From the NCBI GenBank assembly GCA_016181305.1, contig JACOZN010000001.1:3025-67024 (forward strand): a DNA stretch of 64,000 nucleotides, written 5' to 3'. The notes under the pieces were generated by a model, which saw only the letters and a program-made list of their open reading frames with translations, ran no database searches and was not told the DNA's origin. Below, piece by piece: positions 3,230 through 60,588 of the stretch (position 1 is the first letter of the stretch; each line of letters opens with the position of its first letter). The position numbers and the translations under genes are program-made. This stretch comes from Candidatus Woesearchaeota archaeon. GTDB taxonomy: Archaea > Nanobdellota > Nanobdellia > Woesearchaeales > GW2011-AR4.

Positions 3230-3803
3230 CTCTGTACTTGTTGGACGCTAGGTTGATGTAATTCAATTCAATGCCTTTCGCCTTCAAAACCTGTGCTTTT
3301 TTTGTTATTGGGCCCGGAAAAAACAAGGTTTTCCACTTTCCCAATTCTTCCAGTATCGCATCGTTTGTGTACTGGCTTCCATGGTTCTTTATAATATATT
3401 TAGCCAGGCCCCTCATTGCAAAGCTGTGCTCGCATCCGCATGCGGCTTTGCCGTCGCTGAATATTATGGAATCAACGCCGCAGCAGTACTCGCAGCTTAT
3501 CTGGCTTGCAACGGCTACTGCCTTCTGCTGGTTTGATGGTGAAACATCATCGTAGCTCACCCCAAGCTCTTTTCCGTATATGGCAGGCATCCCTTTTGGG
3601 ATCACATCCAATTCAAAATCAATATTCCCAGCTGTATCTGCCGCGGGTTTGCTTTCTGCAGCTGCATTCCCAGTTATTGCGGTTATTGCATTTGCATTAA
3701 TTTTCATCTGGCTCATTTGAAATGTGTTAAGCCCGATAACGAGCATGGCTGCCGCCAATAAGCCAATGGTTAATTTTTCAAGATTAAATTGCATGCTTTT
3801 CAC
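3210..3803 (-). CDS. Membrane-anchored Cys-rich protein (CEYCCG...ACGCEHS; resembles PCYCGC-motif proteins)
   Basis: N-terminal TM anchor followed by a domain with clustered Cys motifs. The family assignment is from memory of the motif only. Confidence 0.45.
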   Translation of the reverse strand: MKSMQFNLEKLTIGLLAAAMLVIGLNTFQMSQMKINANAITAITGNAAAESKPAADTAGNIDFELDVIPKGMPAIYGKELGVSYDDVSPSNQQKAVAVASQISCEYCCGVDSIIFSDGKAACGCEHSFAMRGLAKYIIKNHGSQYTNDAILEELGKWKTLFFPGPITKKAQVLKAKGIELNYINLASNKYRGAENGN

Positions 3804-16028: not shown

Positions 16029-16796
16029 ATGGAATTTGATTTATCTGAAATAAAATTAAGTCATAATGACATAAGAAGAGAGGTAACACTACCAAATCAA
16101 CCTTCTAAAGAGTTGGCAGAGTTTATAGGTATCCTAACTGGTGATGGTTTCATTAACAATTATACTAATAAAAATTCTTATATTATAGAGATTGCTGGAG
16201 ATAGAAACTTGGATAAAGAATACTTGGAAGTTTATATAAAAAATCTTATTAAGAATTTATTCAACATAAACTGCAAAATATACTATAAGAAAGATCAAAA
16301 CACAGCTTATGCTAGATTATTATCTAAGGGAGTTTATAATTACTTACTATCAATAGGATTTAAAGCTGGAAAGAAAGAGCAGATAGGAATCCCAAATTGG
16401 ATAGCAGAAAATAACAGCTTAATGATATCGTTTATTAAGGGTTTAATAGATACTGATGGTTCTTTGATGTTAACAAAAAAGCCATCAAAGAAGTCGCTAT
16501 TTTACCCAATAATCAGTATTAAAGTAAAAAGTAAGATTTTGGTTCAGAAAACTGGAAAGTTTTTAGAGGAATTTGGATTTAGAGTTAATATAATTGAAGA
16601 TGAATTACGCACTGACAAAAGAGGCTATAAAGATACGCTAATTTCTTCTGTAATAATATCTGGAAGAAAAAATTTGGACTTATGGATGGCTAAAATAAAT
16701 TTCAGAAATAAAAGACACTTAGATAAGTACTTGCATTATATTAAAAGTAGAAATATGGGGCGGATGGAAATTTCAGCAACTTTGCGAACGAAGTGA
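16029..16796 (+). CDS. Double-motif LAGLIDADG homing endonuclease, free-standing
   Basis: Two LAGLIDADG motifs: FIGILTGDGFI and FIKGLIDTDGSL. The gene and its 220-nt upstream region are visibly more AT-rich than the flanks. The last 41 nt overlap tRNA-Phe antisense. Confidence 0.8.
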   Translation: MEFDLSEIKLSHNDIRREVTLPNQPSKELAEFIGILTGDGFINNYTNKNSYIIEIAGDRNLDKEYLEVYIKNLIKNLFNINCKIYYKKDQNTAYARLLSKGVYNYLLSIGFKAGKKEQIGIPNWIAENNSLMISFIKGLIDTDGSLMLTKKPSKKSLFYPIISIKVKSKILVQKTGKFLEEFGFRVNIIEDELRTDKRGYKDTLISSVIISGRKNLDLWMAKINFRNKRHLDKYLHYIKSRNMGRMEISATLRTK

Positions 16797-17013
16797 GCTC
16801 TCGGAACTTTATGTTCCGCAAAGCGTCAACCGATTTCGCGGTTGTTTTGAATCCATGATTGTAGAAGGACACTAAACGTGAGCCTTTCACCACGGTCTTC
16901 AGCCGTCTAAGCCAACATTAAAGCTGTGTGCTCTCCATAGCCGAAGACTTCTAGCTTCCTTCACAGGCTGAGCTACCGAACTGGTTCGATAAGCACTTGC
17001 TTATAGAATCCCC
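16756..17013 (-). tRNA. tRNA-Phe(GAA) with five BHB introns (exons 17013-17010, 16978-16964, 16936-16928, 16906-16888, 16858-16846, 16769-16756)
   Basis: The exons join to GGGGCGGTAGCTCAGCCTGGGAGAGCACACGGCTGAAGACCGTGGTGTCATGGATTCAAATTCCATCCGCCCCA. This has a 7-bp acceptor stem, a canonical Phe D-arm, anticodon loop CTGAAGA, variable loop GTGTC and T-loop TTCAAAT. Exons (74 nt) plus introns (31+27+21+29+76 nt) sum to exactly 258 nt. Four introns satisfy the BHB rule fully and the acceptor-stem intron has 3 of 4 central base pairs. Confidence 0.75.
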
Positions 17014-17068
17014 ATGGATGCTCAACCCAAAATCCAAGAACAAGATGACAATTTAAAATACTTTCGAT

Positions 17069-19413: not shown

Positions 19414-19977
19414 TAAAATAACCCTCTTTTTTAATAGCCATGAGATTATTTGTATTTAAACTTTCTGATATGTCGGAAATCGCAAAGGCACACACTTTGG
19501 TACTTGAGTCCAAAGCAAGCAAGCGATTTCCGAGCATGCTCAAAAACACGCTCCGTGCTTTAGTTCGGAGTGTTTTTGACAAAAACAATAAAAAAGAAAG
19601 AGAAAATTTGTTAATGATTATAAGCCCAGAATGCCTATTGTGCTTGTTCTGTTTGCTGCTCTTTTTTCTTCTTTGCCATTTTAAGCACCTCGCTTGCGTT
19701 GAAACAATTGCCGGCTTGCCAAGACATTCAATTTTAATTTAAAAGCGTTGCGAAAAAGCTCGTCAGTCAGGAGTTTTTGATAATATTGAAAAAAACAAAT
19801 TACGAGTAAAAATGCGGAATCGTTGACAATATGGAAAATAAATTTAGTATTCTTATATAGAATTAAGAAAAGCTTTAAATAAGCACAGCATAAACTCAAA
19901 GGTGTTTGGACCTTGGGTAAGTGGAACAGGTTCTAAATATTATTGTTTGATAATAAAAAACTATAAGGAGGTATTGA

Positions 19978-21464
19978 ATGCAACAAAACTTCGAAAGACC
20001 GAAGGATATAAAGCAGGTAAGCGAAACAATCTGGGAGATACCAACCTCATTCAAGAAGGGAATGTTAGTTCCCGCGAGAATTTATGCAACTAAAAAATTG
20101 TTGCATGAAATGGATGATGGAGTTTTTAATCAAGTAACTAATGTTGCTTGTCTTCCCGGAATTCAAAAGTACGCATTCTGCATGCCGGATGGGCACTGGG
20201 GATTTTGAGTAAGTTAATTCTTATTCAACCCTTGACGGTTTTCCCATCGGCGGATCGGATTTGACATTTTTGCTAAAGTATAAGCTTTGCGAAGTCACGT
20301 AATTGCGGTATGCGCCTGGTTACAACTAATCTTACCTATAAAGAAGTCCAGCCAAAACTGAGGGAATTAGTTGACACAATGTTCAAGATAGTCCCGTCAG
20401 GAGTAGGCTCAAGGGGATTTGTTGACGCAAACAAATCCCAGTTCAAGGAAATCATGGAGTATGGCTCGAAATGGTGCGTTGAAAACAATTACGGATGGAA
20501 AGAAGACATGGAAAGGACAGAAGGCTATGGCAGGATTGACTGGGCAGAGCCTGAAAAGGTAAGCTCAAAGGCAATTGAAAGGGGCATGAACCAATTAGGC
20601 ACTTTGGGCTCCGGCAACCATTACTTGGAAATTCAGGTTGTGAAAGCGGAAAACATTTTTGACGGGGAATTGGCAAAAAAGTTCGGCATTGTCGAGCCTG
20701 AGCAGGTTGTTGTTATGGTGCATTGCGGCAGCAGGGGATTTGGCCATCAGATTGGCACAGATTACTTGAGAATTTTTGAAGGAGTAATGAAAAAATACAA
20801 TATTGAGGTTTATGACAGAGAGCTTGCATGCGCGCCTTTCCAAAGCAATGAGGGGCAGGATTATTACAAGGCAATGGCATGCGCAGCCAACATGGCATTT
20901 GCAAACCGCCAGGTCATCTTGCACAGGATAAGGGAAGGCTTTTCAAAAATTTTCAAAACAGAAGCTGAAAAACTTGAGATGCACATGGTTTATGATGTTG
21001 CCCACAATATTGCAAAACTTGAGGAGCATACAATTGACGGGCACAAGAAAAAGCTTGTTGTGCACAGAAAAGGAAGCACAAGGGCATTTCCGCCGCATCA
21101 TCCTGAATTGGCAAAAATATTCAAGGAAACGGGGCAGCCTGTCATTATTGGAGGCAGTATGGAAACAGGAAGCTTTTTGCTTGTCGGCACTCAAAAGGCA
21201 ATGGACGAAACCTTTGGAAGCACTGCTCATGGCTCGGGACGTACAATGTCAAGGGCTGCTGCAAAGCATCAAGTGAGGGGAGAACAATTACAAAGAGACA
21301 TGGAGAAAAGAGGAATTTATGTCAAGGCAACTTCAATGCCCGGGTTGGCTGAGGAAGCTGGATTTGCATATAAGAATATAAATGATGTCATTGATGCCGT
21401 TTCACAGGCGGGAATAAGCAAGCCTGTTGTTGGGTTGAAGCCTGTGGGAAATATTAAGGGTTAA
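19978..21464 (+). CDS. rtcB: RNA-splicing ligase RtcB, interrupted by two BHB introns (exons 19978-20203, 20235-20267, 20300-21464); a 1-nt frame discrepancy remains in the 33-nt middle exon
   Basis: Exon 1 ends ...VACLPGIQKYAFCMPDGHWG, the middle exon encodes YGFPIGG / IGFDI, and exon 3 encodes NCGMRLVTTNL...GSGNHYLEIQ...HCGSRGFGHQ...GSTAHGSGR (RtcB active-site motifs). A GGAGGT Shine-Dalgarno lies 7 nt before the ATG. Confidence 0.8.
20204..20234 (+). other. BHB intron 1 within the rtcB coding sequence (31 nt)
   Basis: Central helix gggg (20198-20201) pairs with ccct (20229-20232). The 3-nt bulges are att and tga, and the inner 9-bp hairpin is ttgagtaag/cttattcaa. Excision creates the codon t|ac (Tyr) and restores HWGYGFPIGG. 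Confidence 0.75.
20268..20299 (+). other. BHB intron 2 within the rtcB coding sequence (32 nt)
   Basis: Outer helix gatt/aatt, central helix tgac (20262-20265) paired with gtca (20294-20297), bulges att and cgt, inner helix of about 10 bp. Excision joins gac at|t aat tgc, giving GFDINCG. Confidence 0.75.
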
Positions 21465-22216: not shown

Positions 22217-22663
22217 ATGAACATAAACAATGACAAGAAAAGATACAAATTTCTAGAGGATGTTGCAATTGCCGACATTGCATATGAAGCCTACGGCAAG
22301 GACTTGAACGAGCTGTTCGAGAATGCCGCCCTCGCAGTCTTTGAGCTTAGCGCTGACTTAAAAACAGTTGATGCAAAAGAGAAAATTGAATTTGGGCTTG
22401 AGAATGAAAAAATTGACAACTTATTGTACGATTTCCTATCTGAAATTTTGTTTTTGAAAGACTCAAAGTACATGGTTTTCAATAAGGTTAAAGTTGAAAT
22501 TAAGCAAAACAAGAAATATAATTTGAAAGCAATTGTTGAAGGCGATAATATAAACCCCCAAAAACAGCGCTTGGAAAATGACATAAAAGCTGTTACAATG
22601 CACATGTTTGAGGTCAAGAAAGAGAAAAATATGTGGAAGGCTGTTGTTGTTGTGGATATTTAA
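22217..22663 (+). CDS. Archease (RtcB activator)
   Basis: 148 aa with YKFLEDVAIADIAYEAYGKDLNELFENAA at the N-terminus and ...AVTMHMFEV near the C-terminus, both typical of archease. Confidence 0.8.
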   Translation: MNINNDKKRYKFLEDVAIADIAYEAYGKDLNELFENAALAVFELSADLKTVDAKEKIEFGLENEKIDNLLYDFLSEILFLKDSKYMVFNKVKVEIKQNKKYNLKAIVEGDNINPQKQRLENDIKAVTMHMFEVKKEKNMWKAVVVVDI

Positions 22664-51689: not shown

Positions 51690-51798
51690 CGCCAGGGACG
51701 GGAATTCCGTGGCATACATTTCGAACCCGTGTTACATTCGGGTGAATGTAAACCAGATCTTAAGTCTGGCATCTTAAGCCTGACTCGACCACCCTGGC
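51690..51798 (-). tRNA. tRNA-Leu(UAA), class II, with one 16-nt intron in the T-loop (51704-51719)
   Basis: Acceptor GCCAGGG/CCCTGGC, anticodon arm CCAGA-CTTAAGA-TCTGG, long variable arm TTACATTC-ACCC-GAATGTAA, T-arm ACGGG-TTCGAA[intron]T-CCCGT. The intron obeys the BHB rule (TTCG pairs with CGGA). Confidence 0.85.
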
Positions 51799-60449: not shown

Positions 60450-60588
60450 TGCGCCGGCCGGGAATTTCGTTGCAGTTCTGCACATTCGAACCCGGACACG
60501 CGGCTGCCCTCTGATTTAATGGAAGGCCGCAGTCATTTATGGCAACCGATCTTTTCCTAAAAGGTTGTAGCCATTAGACCACCAGCGC
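60450..60588 (-). tRNA. tRNA-Gly(UCC) with three BHB introns (60537-60568 in the D-loop, 60506-60519 at 37/38, 60464-60484 in the T-loop)
   Basis: Acceptor GCGCTGG/CCGGCGC (one G-U pair), D-arm GTCTAATGGCT|ATGAC, anticodon arm GCGGC-CTTCCA|A-GCCGC, T-arm CCGGG-TTCGAA|T-CCCGG. All three introns obey the BHB rule. A TATA box lies at 60612-60621 on the minus strand. Confidence 0.85.

What the first reader, a model, noticed from the sequence alone, without database searches (positions are those of the whole stretch)
16756..17013. tRNA-Phe(GAA) gene split by five BHB introns, including one in the acceptor stem
On the minus strand, six short exons of 4, 15, 9, 19, 13 and 14 nt join into a textbook 74-nt tRNA-Phe: GGGGCGG TA GCTC AGCCTGGGA GAGC A CACGG CTGAAGA CCGTG GTGTC ATGGA TTCAAAT TCCAT CCGCCCC A.

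The introns are 31, 27, 21, 29 and 76 nt. They sit after position 4 (acceptor stem), in the D-loop, at 27/28, in the variable loop and at 59/60 (T-loop). Exons plus introns sum to exactly 258 nt.

For four introns, the 4 nt preceding the last 2 exon nt pair with the 4 nt preceding the last 2 intron nt, as the BHB geometry requires: AGCC/GGCT, GAGC/GCTT, GTGG/CTAC, TTCA/TGAA. The acceptor-stem intron has 3 of 4 pairs.

Splicing produces the canonical Phe D-loop GCTCAGCCTGGGAGAGC and the variable loop GTGTC, which I did not assume beforehand. To my knowledge, archaeal tRNA genes with up to three introns (Thermoproteales) are the described extreme, so five would be exceptional. One oddity is that base pair 53-61 is A-T rather than the usual G-C.
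Basis: seen in the sequence. Interest (0 to 1): 0.88.

Follow-up and report, generated by a model that had tools for sequence, protein, structure and literature searches.

The report
Transfer RNA gene with five introns
A phenylalanine tRNA gene of an uncultured ultrasmall (DPANN, Woesearchaeota-type) archaeon is cut into six pieces by five short protein-spliced introns, two more than the published maximum of three, and related genomes keep the same layout.

Summary
On the minus strand, 17013..16756, six exons (4, 15, 9, 19, 13, 14 nt) join into a 74-nt tRNA-Phe(GAA) that ARAGORN accepts once it is spliced. ARAGORN and Rfam both miss the unspliced gene.

All five insertions have bulge-helix-bulge (BHB) geometry at the only junctions the mature sequence allows. 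19 of 20 central-helix pairs form, against 0 of 200,000 intron shuffles.

The decisive evidence is comparative. Three other assemblies (L033, L080, L129) carry all five introns. Close relatives lack one or two of them, and their uninterrupted sequence equals the predicted exon-exon junctions. Central helices are kept in every copy, while inner helices and tRNA stems show compensatory changes. A BRE/TATA promoter is conserved.

The other two tRNA genes in the window are also interrupted: Leu has one intron and a hidden Gly(TCC) has three.

The mechanism is the known one: EndA cleavage followed by RtcB ligation. What is new is the number of introns and the leader-dependent acceptor-stem intron. 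The literature I could search gives three introns as the maximum.

Not shown here: expression, an EndA gene, and the absence of a second tRNA-Phe. The RtcB gene in the window is itself interrupted and apparently frameshifted.

The parts
17051..17066 (-). Archaeal promoter-like element CGAAAG-TA-TTTTAAAT (BRE-like plus TATA-like box). It ends 37 nt upstream of G1.
   Evidence: Read. The same CGAAAG..TTTTAAAT element lies upstream of all orthologous tRNA-Phe genes. It is 26 nt from G1 in genes without intron 1 and about 37 nt in genes with intron 1. That it acts as a promoter is inferred from position and conservation, not tested.
17014..17027 (-). 5' leader GGTTGAGCATCCAT. Its last two bases plus G1-G2 form the 5' strand of the intron-1 central helix. 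GGTTGAGC..TC pairs with exon 2 (GG.TAGCTCAGCC) as the outer helix.
   Evidence: local minimum-free-energy fold. RNAalifold on 5 orthologues predicts an 11-bp leader/exon-2 helix with A-U/G-U variation. The roughly 11-nt longer leader GGTTGRGCAKC..AT is present only in the genes that have intron 1.
17010..17013 (-). Exon 1, GGGG (tRNA positions 1-4)
16979..17009 (-). Intron 1, 31 nt, in the acceptor stem at 4/5. Central helix ATGG/CCAG (3 of 4 pairs), bulges GG|A and TT|C, inner helix TTC.ATAAGC/GCTTAT.GAA.
   Evidence: Also present in L129, L033, L080 and L010, where L010 has 4/4 (ATGG/CCAT). Absent in L123, L122, L127, L124 and L070, which read ..GGGG|CG.. without interruption. Inner-helix positions 3 and 4 change on both sides.
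16964..16978 (-). Exon 2, CGGTAGCTCAGCCTG (positions 5-18: 3' part of the acceptor 5' strand, D stem 5' strand, D loop)
16937..16963 (-). Intron 2, 27 nt, in the D loop (between the G's of the conserved GG). Central helix AGCC/GGCT 4/4, inner helix GAAGG/TCTTC, outer helix CTC/GAG.
   Evidence: As an isolated module its minimum-free-energy fold is exactly helix-bulge-helix, -5.8 kcal/mol. Present in all 13 orthologous loci, and at the same site in 14 of the 107 DPANN tRNA-Phe genes surveyed.
16928..16936 (-). Exon 3, GGAGAGCAC (positions 19-27)
16907..16927 (-). Intron 3, 21 nt, at 27/28 (first step of the anticodon stem). Central helix GAGC/GCTT 4/4, inner helix CAGC/GTTG, no outer helix (HBh' type).
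   Evidence: Central-helix probability is 0.95 in the full precursor. RNAalifold predicts it unaided. Inner pair 3 is G-U, A-U or G-C among orthologues.
16888..16906 (-). Exon 4, ACGGCTGAAGACCGTGGTG (positions 28-46: anticodon stem-loop with GAA and the start of the variable loop)
   Evidence: The 19-mer is shared by more than 100 DPANN tRNA-Phe genes.
16859..16887 (-). Intron 4, 29 nt, in the variable loop at 46/47. Central helix GTGG/CTAC 4/4, inner helix AAGG/CCTT plus CAC/GTG, no outer helix.
   Evidence: The intron strand of the central helix varies (CTAC, CCAC, CCGC) and always pairs. Absent in L010, L122 and L127, which read ..GTGGTG|TCGAGG...
16846..16858 (-). Exon 5, TCATGGATTCAAA (positions 47-59)
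16770..16845 (-). Intron 5, 76 nt, in the T loop at 59/60. Central helix TTCA/TGAA 4/4, outer helix is the T stem (5 bp), inner helix CAAC/GTTG with one extra bulged C. It is about 49 nt longer than the 22-29 nt orthologues.
   Evidence: The local minimum-free-energy fold is a complete hBHBh'. Central-helix probability is 0.89. Absent in L124 and L070, which read ..TTCAAA|TTCCAT... The same 59/60 site is used in the window's tRNA-Leu and tRNA-Gly.
16756..16769 (-). Exon 6, TTCCATCCGCCCCA (positions 60-73, ending in discriminator A). No encoded CCA.
   Evidence: Acceptor pair 7:66 covaries among orthologues as G-C, T-A or C-G.

Best explanation
This is the working tRNA-Phe(GAA) gene of a DPANN archaeon of the Woesearchaeota/Nanobdellota type. 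It is interrupted by five introns of the archaeal bulge-helix-bulge (BHB) class.

Proposed pathway:
1. Transcription starts about 11-14 nt upstream of G1 from a conserved BRE/TATA element (inferred).
2. Each intron folds locally into a 4-bp central helix flanked by 3-nt bulges. For intron 1 the 5' leader provides part of the central helix and the whole outer helix by pairing with exon 2. For intron 5 the T stem is the outer helix. Introns 3 and 4 are the relaxed helix-bulge-helix form, and intron 2 has only a short 3-bp outer helix (the geometry is shown in the sequence).
3. The tRNA splicing endonuclease EndA cuts after the second nucleotide of each bulge, at ten sites in all. RtcB, helped by Archease, joins the six exons (inferred from what is established for this intron class).
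4. The cloverleaf can form only after splicing. The leader is then removed and CCA is added, since CCA is not encoded (inferred).

The helices overlap: the leader/exon-2 helix covers the D-loop strand that intron 2 needs, and the intron-4 central helix uses the 3' strand of the anticodon stem. Splicing is therefore probably ordered, with introns 1, 3 and 5 removed before 2 and 4 (inferred from folding only).
For: Sequence and geometry:
- Exact exon/intron arithmetic, and ARAGORN calls the spliced product tRNA-Phe(GAA).
- BHB geometry sits at the sequence-fixed junctions, with 19/20 central pairs against 0 of 200,000 shuffles.
- Each intron module on its own folds to helix-bulge-helix, or within about 1 kcal/mol of it.

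Comparative evidence:
- L033, L080 and L129 have all five introns. L010 and L123 have four. L122, L127, L124 and L070 have three. Wherever an intron is absent, the sequence equals the predicted junction.
- The central helix is 4/4 in every copy of I2-I5, with pair-preserving changes on the intron side.
- Changes on both sides occur in the inner helices of I1, I3, I4 and I5, in acceptor pair 7:66 and in T-stem pairs 49:65 and 50:64.
- The promoter element is conserved, and the extended leader is found only with intron 1.
- RNAalifold independently predicts the I1 outer and inner helices, and the I3 and I5 BHBs.

Survey of related genes:
- In 107 DPANN tRNA-Phe genes, 36 of 44 inferred introns have a 4/4 central helix. 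Only 2 of 30 spurious 'introns' forced onto non-tRNA or truncated hits do.

Context in the window:
- tRNA-Leu has one BHB intron and tRNA-Gly has three.
- RtcB and Archease genes lie 3-5 kb away.

Literature:
- DPANN EndA variants have been linked to increased tRNA gene disruption, and undetected disrupted tRNA genes were predicted (PMC5829648).
Against: - There are no expression or splicing data.
- No EndA gene is in the 64-kb window (Pfam scan of 65 ORFs).
- The RtcB gene in the window is interrupted by two intron-like inserts. It also lacks 46 nt of coding sequence, so it stays frameshifted after their removal. Either another ligase copy exists, or the assembly is wrong there, or ligation is impaired.
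- Equilibrium folding of the whole precursor gives a low probability for the central helices of I1 (0.06), I2 (0.00) and I4 (0-0.3) in every splicing intermediate. The structure with all five central helices formed is about 22 kcal/mol above the minimum free energy.
- G53-C61 is replaced by A-T.
- The 3' trailer in the window lacks the long T run seen in relatives.
- I could not test whether the genome holds a second, ordinary tRNA-Phe gene.
Confidence: 0.85

Rival explanations
1. The locus is a decaying or redundant tRNA-Phe copy that has accumulated insertions and is not needed, because an ordinary tRNA-Phe(GAA) gene elsewhere in the genome does the work.
For: Only 64 kb of the genome was available, so a second gene cannot be excluded. 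The RtcB gene next door looks damaged. The T stem has A53-T61. The trailer lacks a clear T-run terminator, and a LAGLIDADG ORF has been inserted against the 3' end.
Against: - The exons are invariant or covary so as to keep the stems (7:66 as G-C, T-A or C-G; 49:65; 50:64) across at least 10 distinct orthologues.
- All five insertions keep BHB helices in four independent assemblies.
- The promoter is conserved.
- The genome scan with the anticodon-arm 19-mer listed one hit in each related genome (L010, L033, L070, L080).
- A pseudogene would not preserve ten splice-site contexts.
Confidence: 0.08
2. The gene is real, but not all five insertions are removed through simple independent BHB recognition. 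Introns 2 and 4 (and perhaps 1) may need refolding, a fixed order, helper factors or another nuclease, or some transcripts may end as dead-end intermediates.
For: Partition-function folding never favours the central helices of I2, I4 and I1 in any intermediate. The 3' part of intron 2 (GTCTTCGGCT) is complementary over 10 bp to the anticodon arm, and RNAalifold chooses that pairing. The helices for I1/I2 and for I4/anticodon stem overlap.
Against: As local modules, I2 and I4 fold exactly into helix-bulge-helix, and their central helices are 4/4 in all orthologues. BHB motifs of known non-canonical introns can also be weak by free energy: +1.15 kcal/mol was reported for one spliced Cyanidioschyzon merolae intron (PMC3728597). 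Ordered splicing is documented there too, so this is a refinement of the main explanation rather than an alternative to it.
Confidence: 0.05
3. The five-intron model is a chance assembly of short tRNA-like pieces, or an assembly artefact.
Against: 0 of 200,000 shuffles reach the observed pairing. The same layout occurs in independent genome and metagenome assemblies from different projects, and relatives without a given intron have exactly the predicted junctions.
Confidence: 0.01

Closest known systems
Multi-intron tRNA genes of Thermoproteales (Pyrobaculum, Thermofilum, Caldivirga), found with SPLITS and tRNAscan-SE
   Same: They have short BHB or relaxed BHB introns at canonical and non-canonical positions, including the D loop, variable region and 59/60. 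They are removed by EndA and ligated by RtcB, and several introns can sit in one gene. Standard tRNA finders miss the genes until the introns are removed.
   Different: The published maximum is three introns per gene, and the densest genome has 71 introns in 46 genes (PMC8450103). Here one gene has five, and the window's three tRNA genes carry nine. The host is a mesophile-type, 41% G+C DPANN archaeon, not a hyperthermophilic crenarchaeon. The first intron needs the 5' leader to build its BHB.
Disrupted nuclear tRNA genes of the red alga Cyanidioschyzon merolae
   Same: Up to three ectopic BHB-type introns per gene in the D arm, at 37/38 and in the T loop. Splicing order was shown experimentally and correlates with BHB stability (PMC3728597).
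   Different: These are eukaryotic nuclear genes, some of them also circularly permuted. There are at most three introns per gene.
Split and tri-split tRNA genes (Nanoarchaeum equitans, Caldivirga maquilingensis)
   Same: Pieces of a tRNA are joined at BHB motifs built with leader or trailer sequences, and they occur in DPANN. Here the intron-1 BHB likewise uses a leader, and locus L032 keeps only the 3' part of the gene.
   Different: In the window all six pieces are collinear on one transcript (cis-splicing). No trans-splicing is needed.
DPANN EndA variants with broad substrate specificity (epsilon2 of ARMAN-2; alpha4 with the L3 loop)
   Same: This is the enzyme class expected to process such relaxed, ectopic BHB motifs. 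Kaneta et al. linked L3-loop EndAs in DPANN, including a Woesearchaeota and a Pacearchaeota genome, with increased tRNA gene disruption and predicted undetected disrupted genes (PMC5829648).
   Different: No EndA gene was found in this window, so its type in this organism is unknown.

Membership tests
Archaeal BHB (EndA-dependent) tRNA intron | A 4-bp central helix with a 3-nt bulge on each strand; splice sites after the second bulge nucleotide, staggered symmetrically | tested here: met
   All five introns meet it. The central helix is 4/4 for I2-I5 and 3/4 for I1, at junctions fixed by the mature sequence. 0 of 200,000 shuffles match. The helix is kept in every orthologue.
Archaeal BHB (EndA-dependent) tRNA intron | Flanking outer (h) and inner (h') helices: strict hBHBh', or the accepted relaxed forms HBh' / hBH | tested here: met
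   I1 and I5 have both helices (leader/exon 2 and T stem as outer helices). I2 has a 3-bp outer and a 5-bp inner helix. I3 and I4 have an inner helix only (HBh').
Archaeal BHB (EndA-dependent) tRNA intron | Removing the introns yields a canonical cloverleaf tRNA with conserved nucleotides | tested here: met
   ARAGORN calls the spliced 74-mer tRNA-Phe(GAA). It has T8, A14, G18G19, A21, T33, T54T55C56 and A58. The exception is A53-T61, which is conserved in the clade.
Archaeal BHB (EndA-dependent) tRNA intron | The BHB is adopted by the full precursor | tested here: inconclusive
   Central helices of I3 and I5 have probabilities 0.95 and 0.89. I1, I2 and I4 are at or below 0.3 in all intermediates. 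As isolated modules, however, all five fold correctly or within about 1 kcal/mol.
Archaeal BHB (EndA-dependent) tRNA intron | The host encodes the splicing endonuclease EndA and the ligase RtcB | tested here: inconclusive
   RtcB (19978-21464, interrupted) and Archease (22217-22663) are present. No EndA domain was found among 65 ORFs of the window. The rest of the genome was not available.
Archaeal BHB (EndA-dependent) tRNA intron | Introns are excised and exons ligated in vivo or in vitro | not testable with these tools
   This needs tRNA-seq, RT-PCR or an EndA cleavage assay.
tRNA pseudogene | Loss of constraint: broken stems, no promoter, insertions without conserved structure, no conservation between species | tested here: not met
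   Stems are intact and covary, the promoter is conserved, and the introns keep BHB helices across at least 10 distinct orthologues.
Split (trans-spliced) or permuted tRNA gene | Pieces are encoded at separate loci or in permuted order | tested here: not met
   All six exons are collinear within 258 nt on one strand. The related locus L032, which lacks exons 1-3, might be such a case.
Self-splicing group I / group II intron in tRNA | An intron of hundreds of nucleotides with a ribozyme core; known in tRNA genes mainly at the anticodon loop in bacteria and organelles | tested here: not met
   The introns are 21-76 nt. Rfam finds no intron family, or any other family, at the locus.

The most novel reading that the evidence does not exclude
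In this Woesearchaeota-type clade, BHB introns may be proliferating genome-wide rather than being a curiosity of one gene.

- They reach five per tRNA gene, and nine in the three tRNA genes of this window.
- They may explain the 'missing' tRNAs reported for DPANN/Nanobdellota genomes.
- They appear to have invaded protein-coding genes, including the gene for the splicing ligase RtcB itself, so that making the ligase would depend on splicing.
- Free-standing LAGLIDADG genes next to the intron-rich loci hint at a possible link to intron mobility.
Probability: 0.45. Interest if true: 0.85.

Novelty: new variant of a known kind. Interest (0 to 1): 0.64.

Why it matters
The find raises the known ceiling for tRNA gene fragmentation from three to five cis-introns. 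It also shows a tRNA whose cloverleaf cannot form at all before ten endonuclease cuts and five ligations.

Practical consequence. ARAGORN and Rfam see none of the window's three tRNA genes correctly. 'Missing' tRNAs in DPANN genomes may therefore often be hidden multi-intron genes rather than losses or split genes. Genome completeness and codon-usage inferences for these lineages need intron-aware searches.

Use for evolution studies. The presence/absence series among close relatives (5, 4, 4, 3 and 3 introns at identical sites) is a ready-made system for studying gain and loss of archaeal introns. The leader-dependent acceptor-stem intron resembles an intermediate between cis-spliced and split tRNA genes. 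This bears on the long-running debate about the origin of split tRNAs.

Tried and rejected
- **Standard detectors.** ARAGORN finds only a mis-delimited tRNA-Leu. Rfam finds nothing relevant at gathering threshold or at E <= 10.
- **Identifying the source genome.** Exact-protein look-up of three window proteins found none on record.
- **Blind recovery of the gene.** Brute-force enumeration of all BHB-candidate subsets followed by ARAGORN timed out twice. A stricter version limited to four introns could not include I1, whose central helix is 3/4, so it recovered the hidden tRNA-Gly but not tRNA-Phe.
- **Whole-window scan for introns in protein genes.** Joining ORFs across BHB candidates gave hundreds of unspecific hits, and I abandoned it.
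- **Search for EndA in the window.** Negative.
- **C/D-box sRNA in the 76-nt intron 5.** Considered by eye: there is a CTGA but no convincing C box. Not pursued.
- **A 'tRNA-Pro(AGG)' call at 60541-60464.** This was a mis-spliced version of tRNA-Gly(TCC).
Full report
**1. The observation**

Exons of 4, 15, 9, 19, 13 and 14 nt are separated by introns of 31, 27, 21, 29 and 76 nt, 258 nt in all. The coordinates are in the parts list.

The joined sequence is GGGGCGGTAGCTCAGCCTGGGAGAGCACACGGCTGAAGACCGTGGTGTCATGGATTCAAATTCCATCCGCCCCA. ARAGORN folds it into a regular cloverleaf and calls it tRNA-Phe(GAA).

On the unspliced DNA, ARAGORN finds nothing here. Rfam finds no tRNA at the gathering threshold or at E <= 10.

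In standard numbering the introns lie at:
- 4/5, in the acceptor stem
- between the conserved G's of the D loop
- 27/28
- 46/47
- 59/60

Four junctions are fixed uniquely by the sequence. For intron 3 three registers give the same product.

**2. BHB geometry**

In an archaeal bulge-helix-bulge (BHB) motif, the four exon bases before the last two exon bases pair with the four intron bases before the last two intron bases. Each splice site then lies after the second base of a 3-nt bulge. This is my own knowledge of the motif, consistent with PMC5829648.

| Intron | Central helix | Inner helix | Outer helix |
|---|---|---|---|
| I1 | 3/4 | yes | yes: 5' leader (GAGCATCC) pairs with exon 2 (GGTAGCTC) |
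| I2 | 4/4 | yes | 3-bp CTC/GAG |
| I3 | 4/4 | yes | none |
| I4 | 4/4 | yes | none |
| I5 | 4/4 | CAAC/GTTG, offset by one bulged C | yes: the T stem |

I3 and I4 are therefore the relaxed helix-bulge-helix form, which broad-specificity endonucleases accept.

Shuffling the intron interiors 200,000 times never gave 19 of 20 central pairs; the maximum was 18 and the mode 8.

Each intron taken alone, from the start of its central helix to its end, folds into exactly this structure (I2, I3, I4) or within about 1 kcal/mol of it (I1, I5).

**3. Comparative evidence**

This is the decisive part. The 19-nt anticodon-arm exon is shared by more than 100 tRNA-Phe genes. Nearly all come from DPANN archaea: Woesearchaeota, Pacearchaeota, Iainarchaeota, Aenigmatarchaeota and Nanoarchaeota. 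A second pattern retrieved nine metagenome contigs.

A close clade has the same gene next to the same neighbours:

| Loci | Introns present |
|---|---|
| L033, L080, L129 | all five |
| L010 | all but I4 |
| L123/L125 | all but I1 |
| L122/L126/L128, L127 | I2, I3, I5 |
| L124, L070 | I2, I3, I4 |

Wherever an intron is missing, the uninterrupted sequence is exactly the predicted exon-exon junction: GGGG|CG.., ..GGTG|TC.., ..TTCAAA|TTCC...

Structure is conserved in detail:
- The central helix is 4/4 in every copy of I2-I5. In I1 it is 4/4 in L010.
- The intron strand varies only in pair-preserving ways, for example CTAC, CCAC or CCGC opposite GTGG.
- Inner helices of I1, I3, I4 and I5 show changes on both sides.
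- The mature stems covary: 7:66 is G-C, T-A or C-G, and 49:65 and 50:64 change together.
- A53-T61 is constant in this clade.

All genes share an upstream CGAAAG..TTTTAAAT element. Genes with I1 have about 11 extra nucleotides of leader (GGTTGRGCAKC..AT); genes without I1 do not.

RNAalifold, given five orthologues and no hint, predicts three things:
- an 11-bp leader/exon-2 helix together with the I1 inner helix
- the I3 BHB
- the complete I5 hBHBh'

**4. How common this is**

I ran a spliced-alignment survey and corrected it by hand for the acceptor-stem introns in L010, L033, L071, L080 and L106 and for a missed second T-arm intron in L045. Among 107 complete tRNA-Phe genes in the genome hits:

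| Introns per gene | Genes |
|---|---|
| 0 | 80 |
| 1 | 16 |
| 2 | 5 |
| 3 | 2 |
| 4 | 2 |
| 5 | 2 |

Of the 44 introns inferred in real genes, 36 have a 4/4 central helix. Of 30 'introns' forced onto bacterial coding hits or truncated loci, only 2 do. This serves as an internal negative control.

The window itself holds two more interrupted tRNA genes:
- tRNA-Leu(TAA) is really 51798-51690, with a 16-nt intron at 59/60.
- tRNA-Gly(TCC), 60588-60450, was invisible to the standard tools. It has three introns: D loop, 37/38 and 59/60.

That makes nine introns in three genes.

**5. Mechanism**

Shown here: the geometry, its conservation, and the fact that the cloverleaf cannot form before splicing.

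Inferred from established knowledge of this intron class: EndA cuts at the ten bulge sites, RtcB with Archease ligates the exons, the leader is then removed, and CCA is added.

The ligase and its activator are encoded 3-5 kb away. RtcB occupies 19978-21464 and Archease 22217-22663.

Splicing order is an inference from folding:
- The leader/exon-2 helix hides the AGCC strand that I2 needs.
- The I4 central helix uses the anticodon-stem 3' strand.
- In the full precursor only I3 (0.95) and I5 (0.89) have probable central helices. I2 and I4 never do at equilibrium.

Co-transcriptional local folding, or removal of I1, I3 and I5 first, would resolve this. Ordered splicing and weak BHBs have been documented for the three-intron genes of Cyanidioschyzon merolae (PMC3728597).

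**6. Weak points**

- There are no RNA data.
- No EndA gene is in the window.
- Whether a second tRNA-Phe exists could not be tested.
- The RtcB gene is interrupted and, in this window only, lacks 46 nt of coding sequence, so it stays out of frame.

**7. Comparison with what is known**

The tRNAscan-SE 2.0 paper states that archaeal tRNA genes contain up to three introns, and that Pyrobaculum calidifontis has the most, 71 in 46 genes (PMC8450103). C. merolae also reaches three.

Kaneta et al. noted that incomplete tRNA sets in DPANN point to undetected disrupted genes (PMC5829648). A 2026 preprint on 208 Nanobdellota genomes reports missing tRNAs and suggests split genes.

Seven literature searches found no gene with more than three introns.

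The mechanism is therefore a known one. The new elements are the number of introns, the leader-built acceptor-stem BHB, and the lineage.

**8. Verdict**

I classify it as a new variant of a known kind, with interest about 0.64. The main residual uncertainty is the lack of expression data.

Noticed in passing
window 60450-60588 (- strand): A hidden tRNA-Gly(TCC) gene with three BHB introns. They are a D-loop intron 60568-60537 (32 nt; register ambiguous by 1 nt), a canonical 37/38 intron 60519-60506 (14 nt, central helix CTTC/GAGG) and a T-loop 59/60 intron 60484-60464 (21 nt, central helix TTCG/CGAA). ARAGORN and Rfam miss it. I found it by removing BHB candidates and rerunning ARAGORN.
   Followed up: partly
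window 51690-51798 (- strand): tRNA-Leu(TAA) has a 16-nt intron at 59/60 (51719-51704, central helix TTCG/CGGA). ARAGORN's call 51706-51797 is mis-delimited, and the spliced gene is 94 nt with a 22-nt variable arm. All three tRNA genes of the window have an intron at 59/60.
   Followed up: partly
window 19978-21464 (+ strand); inserts at 20204-20234 and 20268-20299: The coding sequence of the tRNA ligase RtcB is interrupted by two short BHB-like inserts. The first is 31 nt, with central helix GGGG/CCCT and a 9-bp inner helix. The second is 32 nt, with central helix TGAC/GTCA. In L010, removing the two homologous inserts restores the exact reading frame (..DGHWGYGFPIGGVAAFD..GFDINCGMR..), and L080, L127, L033, L032 and L070 are uninterrupted. 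The first insert sits 7 nt apart in the window and in L010. The only archaeal mRNA intron I found described is in cbf5 (PMC2738675).
   Followed up: partly
window 20254/20255: Relative to all orthologues, the window's RtcB lacks 46 nt of the middle exon (the VAAFD..ISPGG region). The gap lies between two GGCGG repeats and leaves a frameshift even after both inserts are removed. Contigs L130-L132 are 95-96% identical to window 19657-20254, diverge exactly at this point and keep the missing sequence. It could be a pseudogene, a strain variant or a misassembly; this is unresolved.
   Followed up: partly
proteins P0001-P0120; loci L130-L135: The 120 best database matches to the 76-aa RtcB N-terminal ORF are all fragments of 71-133 aa. 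Many lie on contigs of 10-150 kb, so interruption of RtcB just after ..MPDGHWG seems widespread in this lineage. L133-L135 have the first insert plus a 12-nt mini-insert TTTAAACCTTAG (central helix GAGG/CCTT). L130-L132 continue after ..DIN with CLVRDSKILT.., which looks like an intein.
   Followed up: partly
window 16029-16796 (+ strand): A free-standing LAGLIDADG-domain ORF (255 aa) lies between the FlaJ-like gene and tRNA-Phe, and its last 41 nt overlap exon 6 and intron 5 on the opposite strand. In L033, L010, L080 and L129 this ORF is absent and the FlaJ-like gene ends directly downstream of the tRNA. Intron 5 is about 49 nt longer only in the window. Another LAGLIDADG ORF sits just upstream of the interrupted RtcB in L133-L135.
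   Followed up: partly
window 22217-22663 (+ strand): An Archease gene (the RtcB activator) lies two genes downstream of RtcB, with a ZIP transporter gene between them.
   Followed up: no
L032 around 3550-3680: In this Woesearchaeota contig the tRNA-Phe locus lacks the promoter and exons 1-3. The sequence runs from the stop codon of the upstream OB-fold gene straight into the 3' part of intron 3, then exon 4, intron 4 and exons 5-6. No 5' half lies within the 4.4-kb locus. It could be the 3' half of a split tRNA or a remnant.
   Followed up: partly
window 16939-16948 versus 16893-16904 (- strand): The 3' part of intron 2 (GTCTTCGGCT) is complementary over 10 bp to the anticodon arm (GGCTGAAGAC). 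It is invariant in all orthologues. Both the single-sequence and the consensus folds prefer this pairing to the intron-2 BHB. It may be a by-product, or it may help set the splicing order.
   Followed up: no
L071, L106, L045, L020: Other DPANN lineages also have tRNA-Phe introns at unusual sites. L071 has one in the acceptor stem at 4/5, and L106 at 5/6. L045 has two introns within the T arm plus one in the D loop. L020 has four introns, including two in the D loop.
   Followed up: partly
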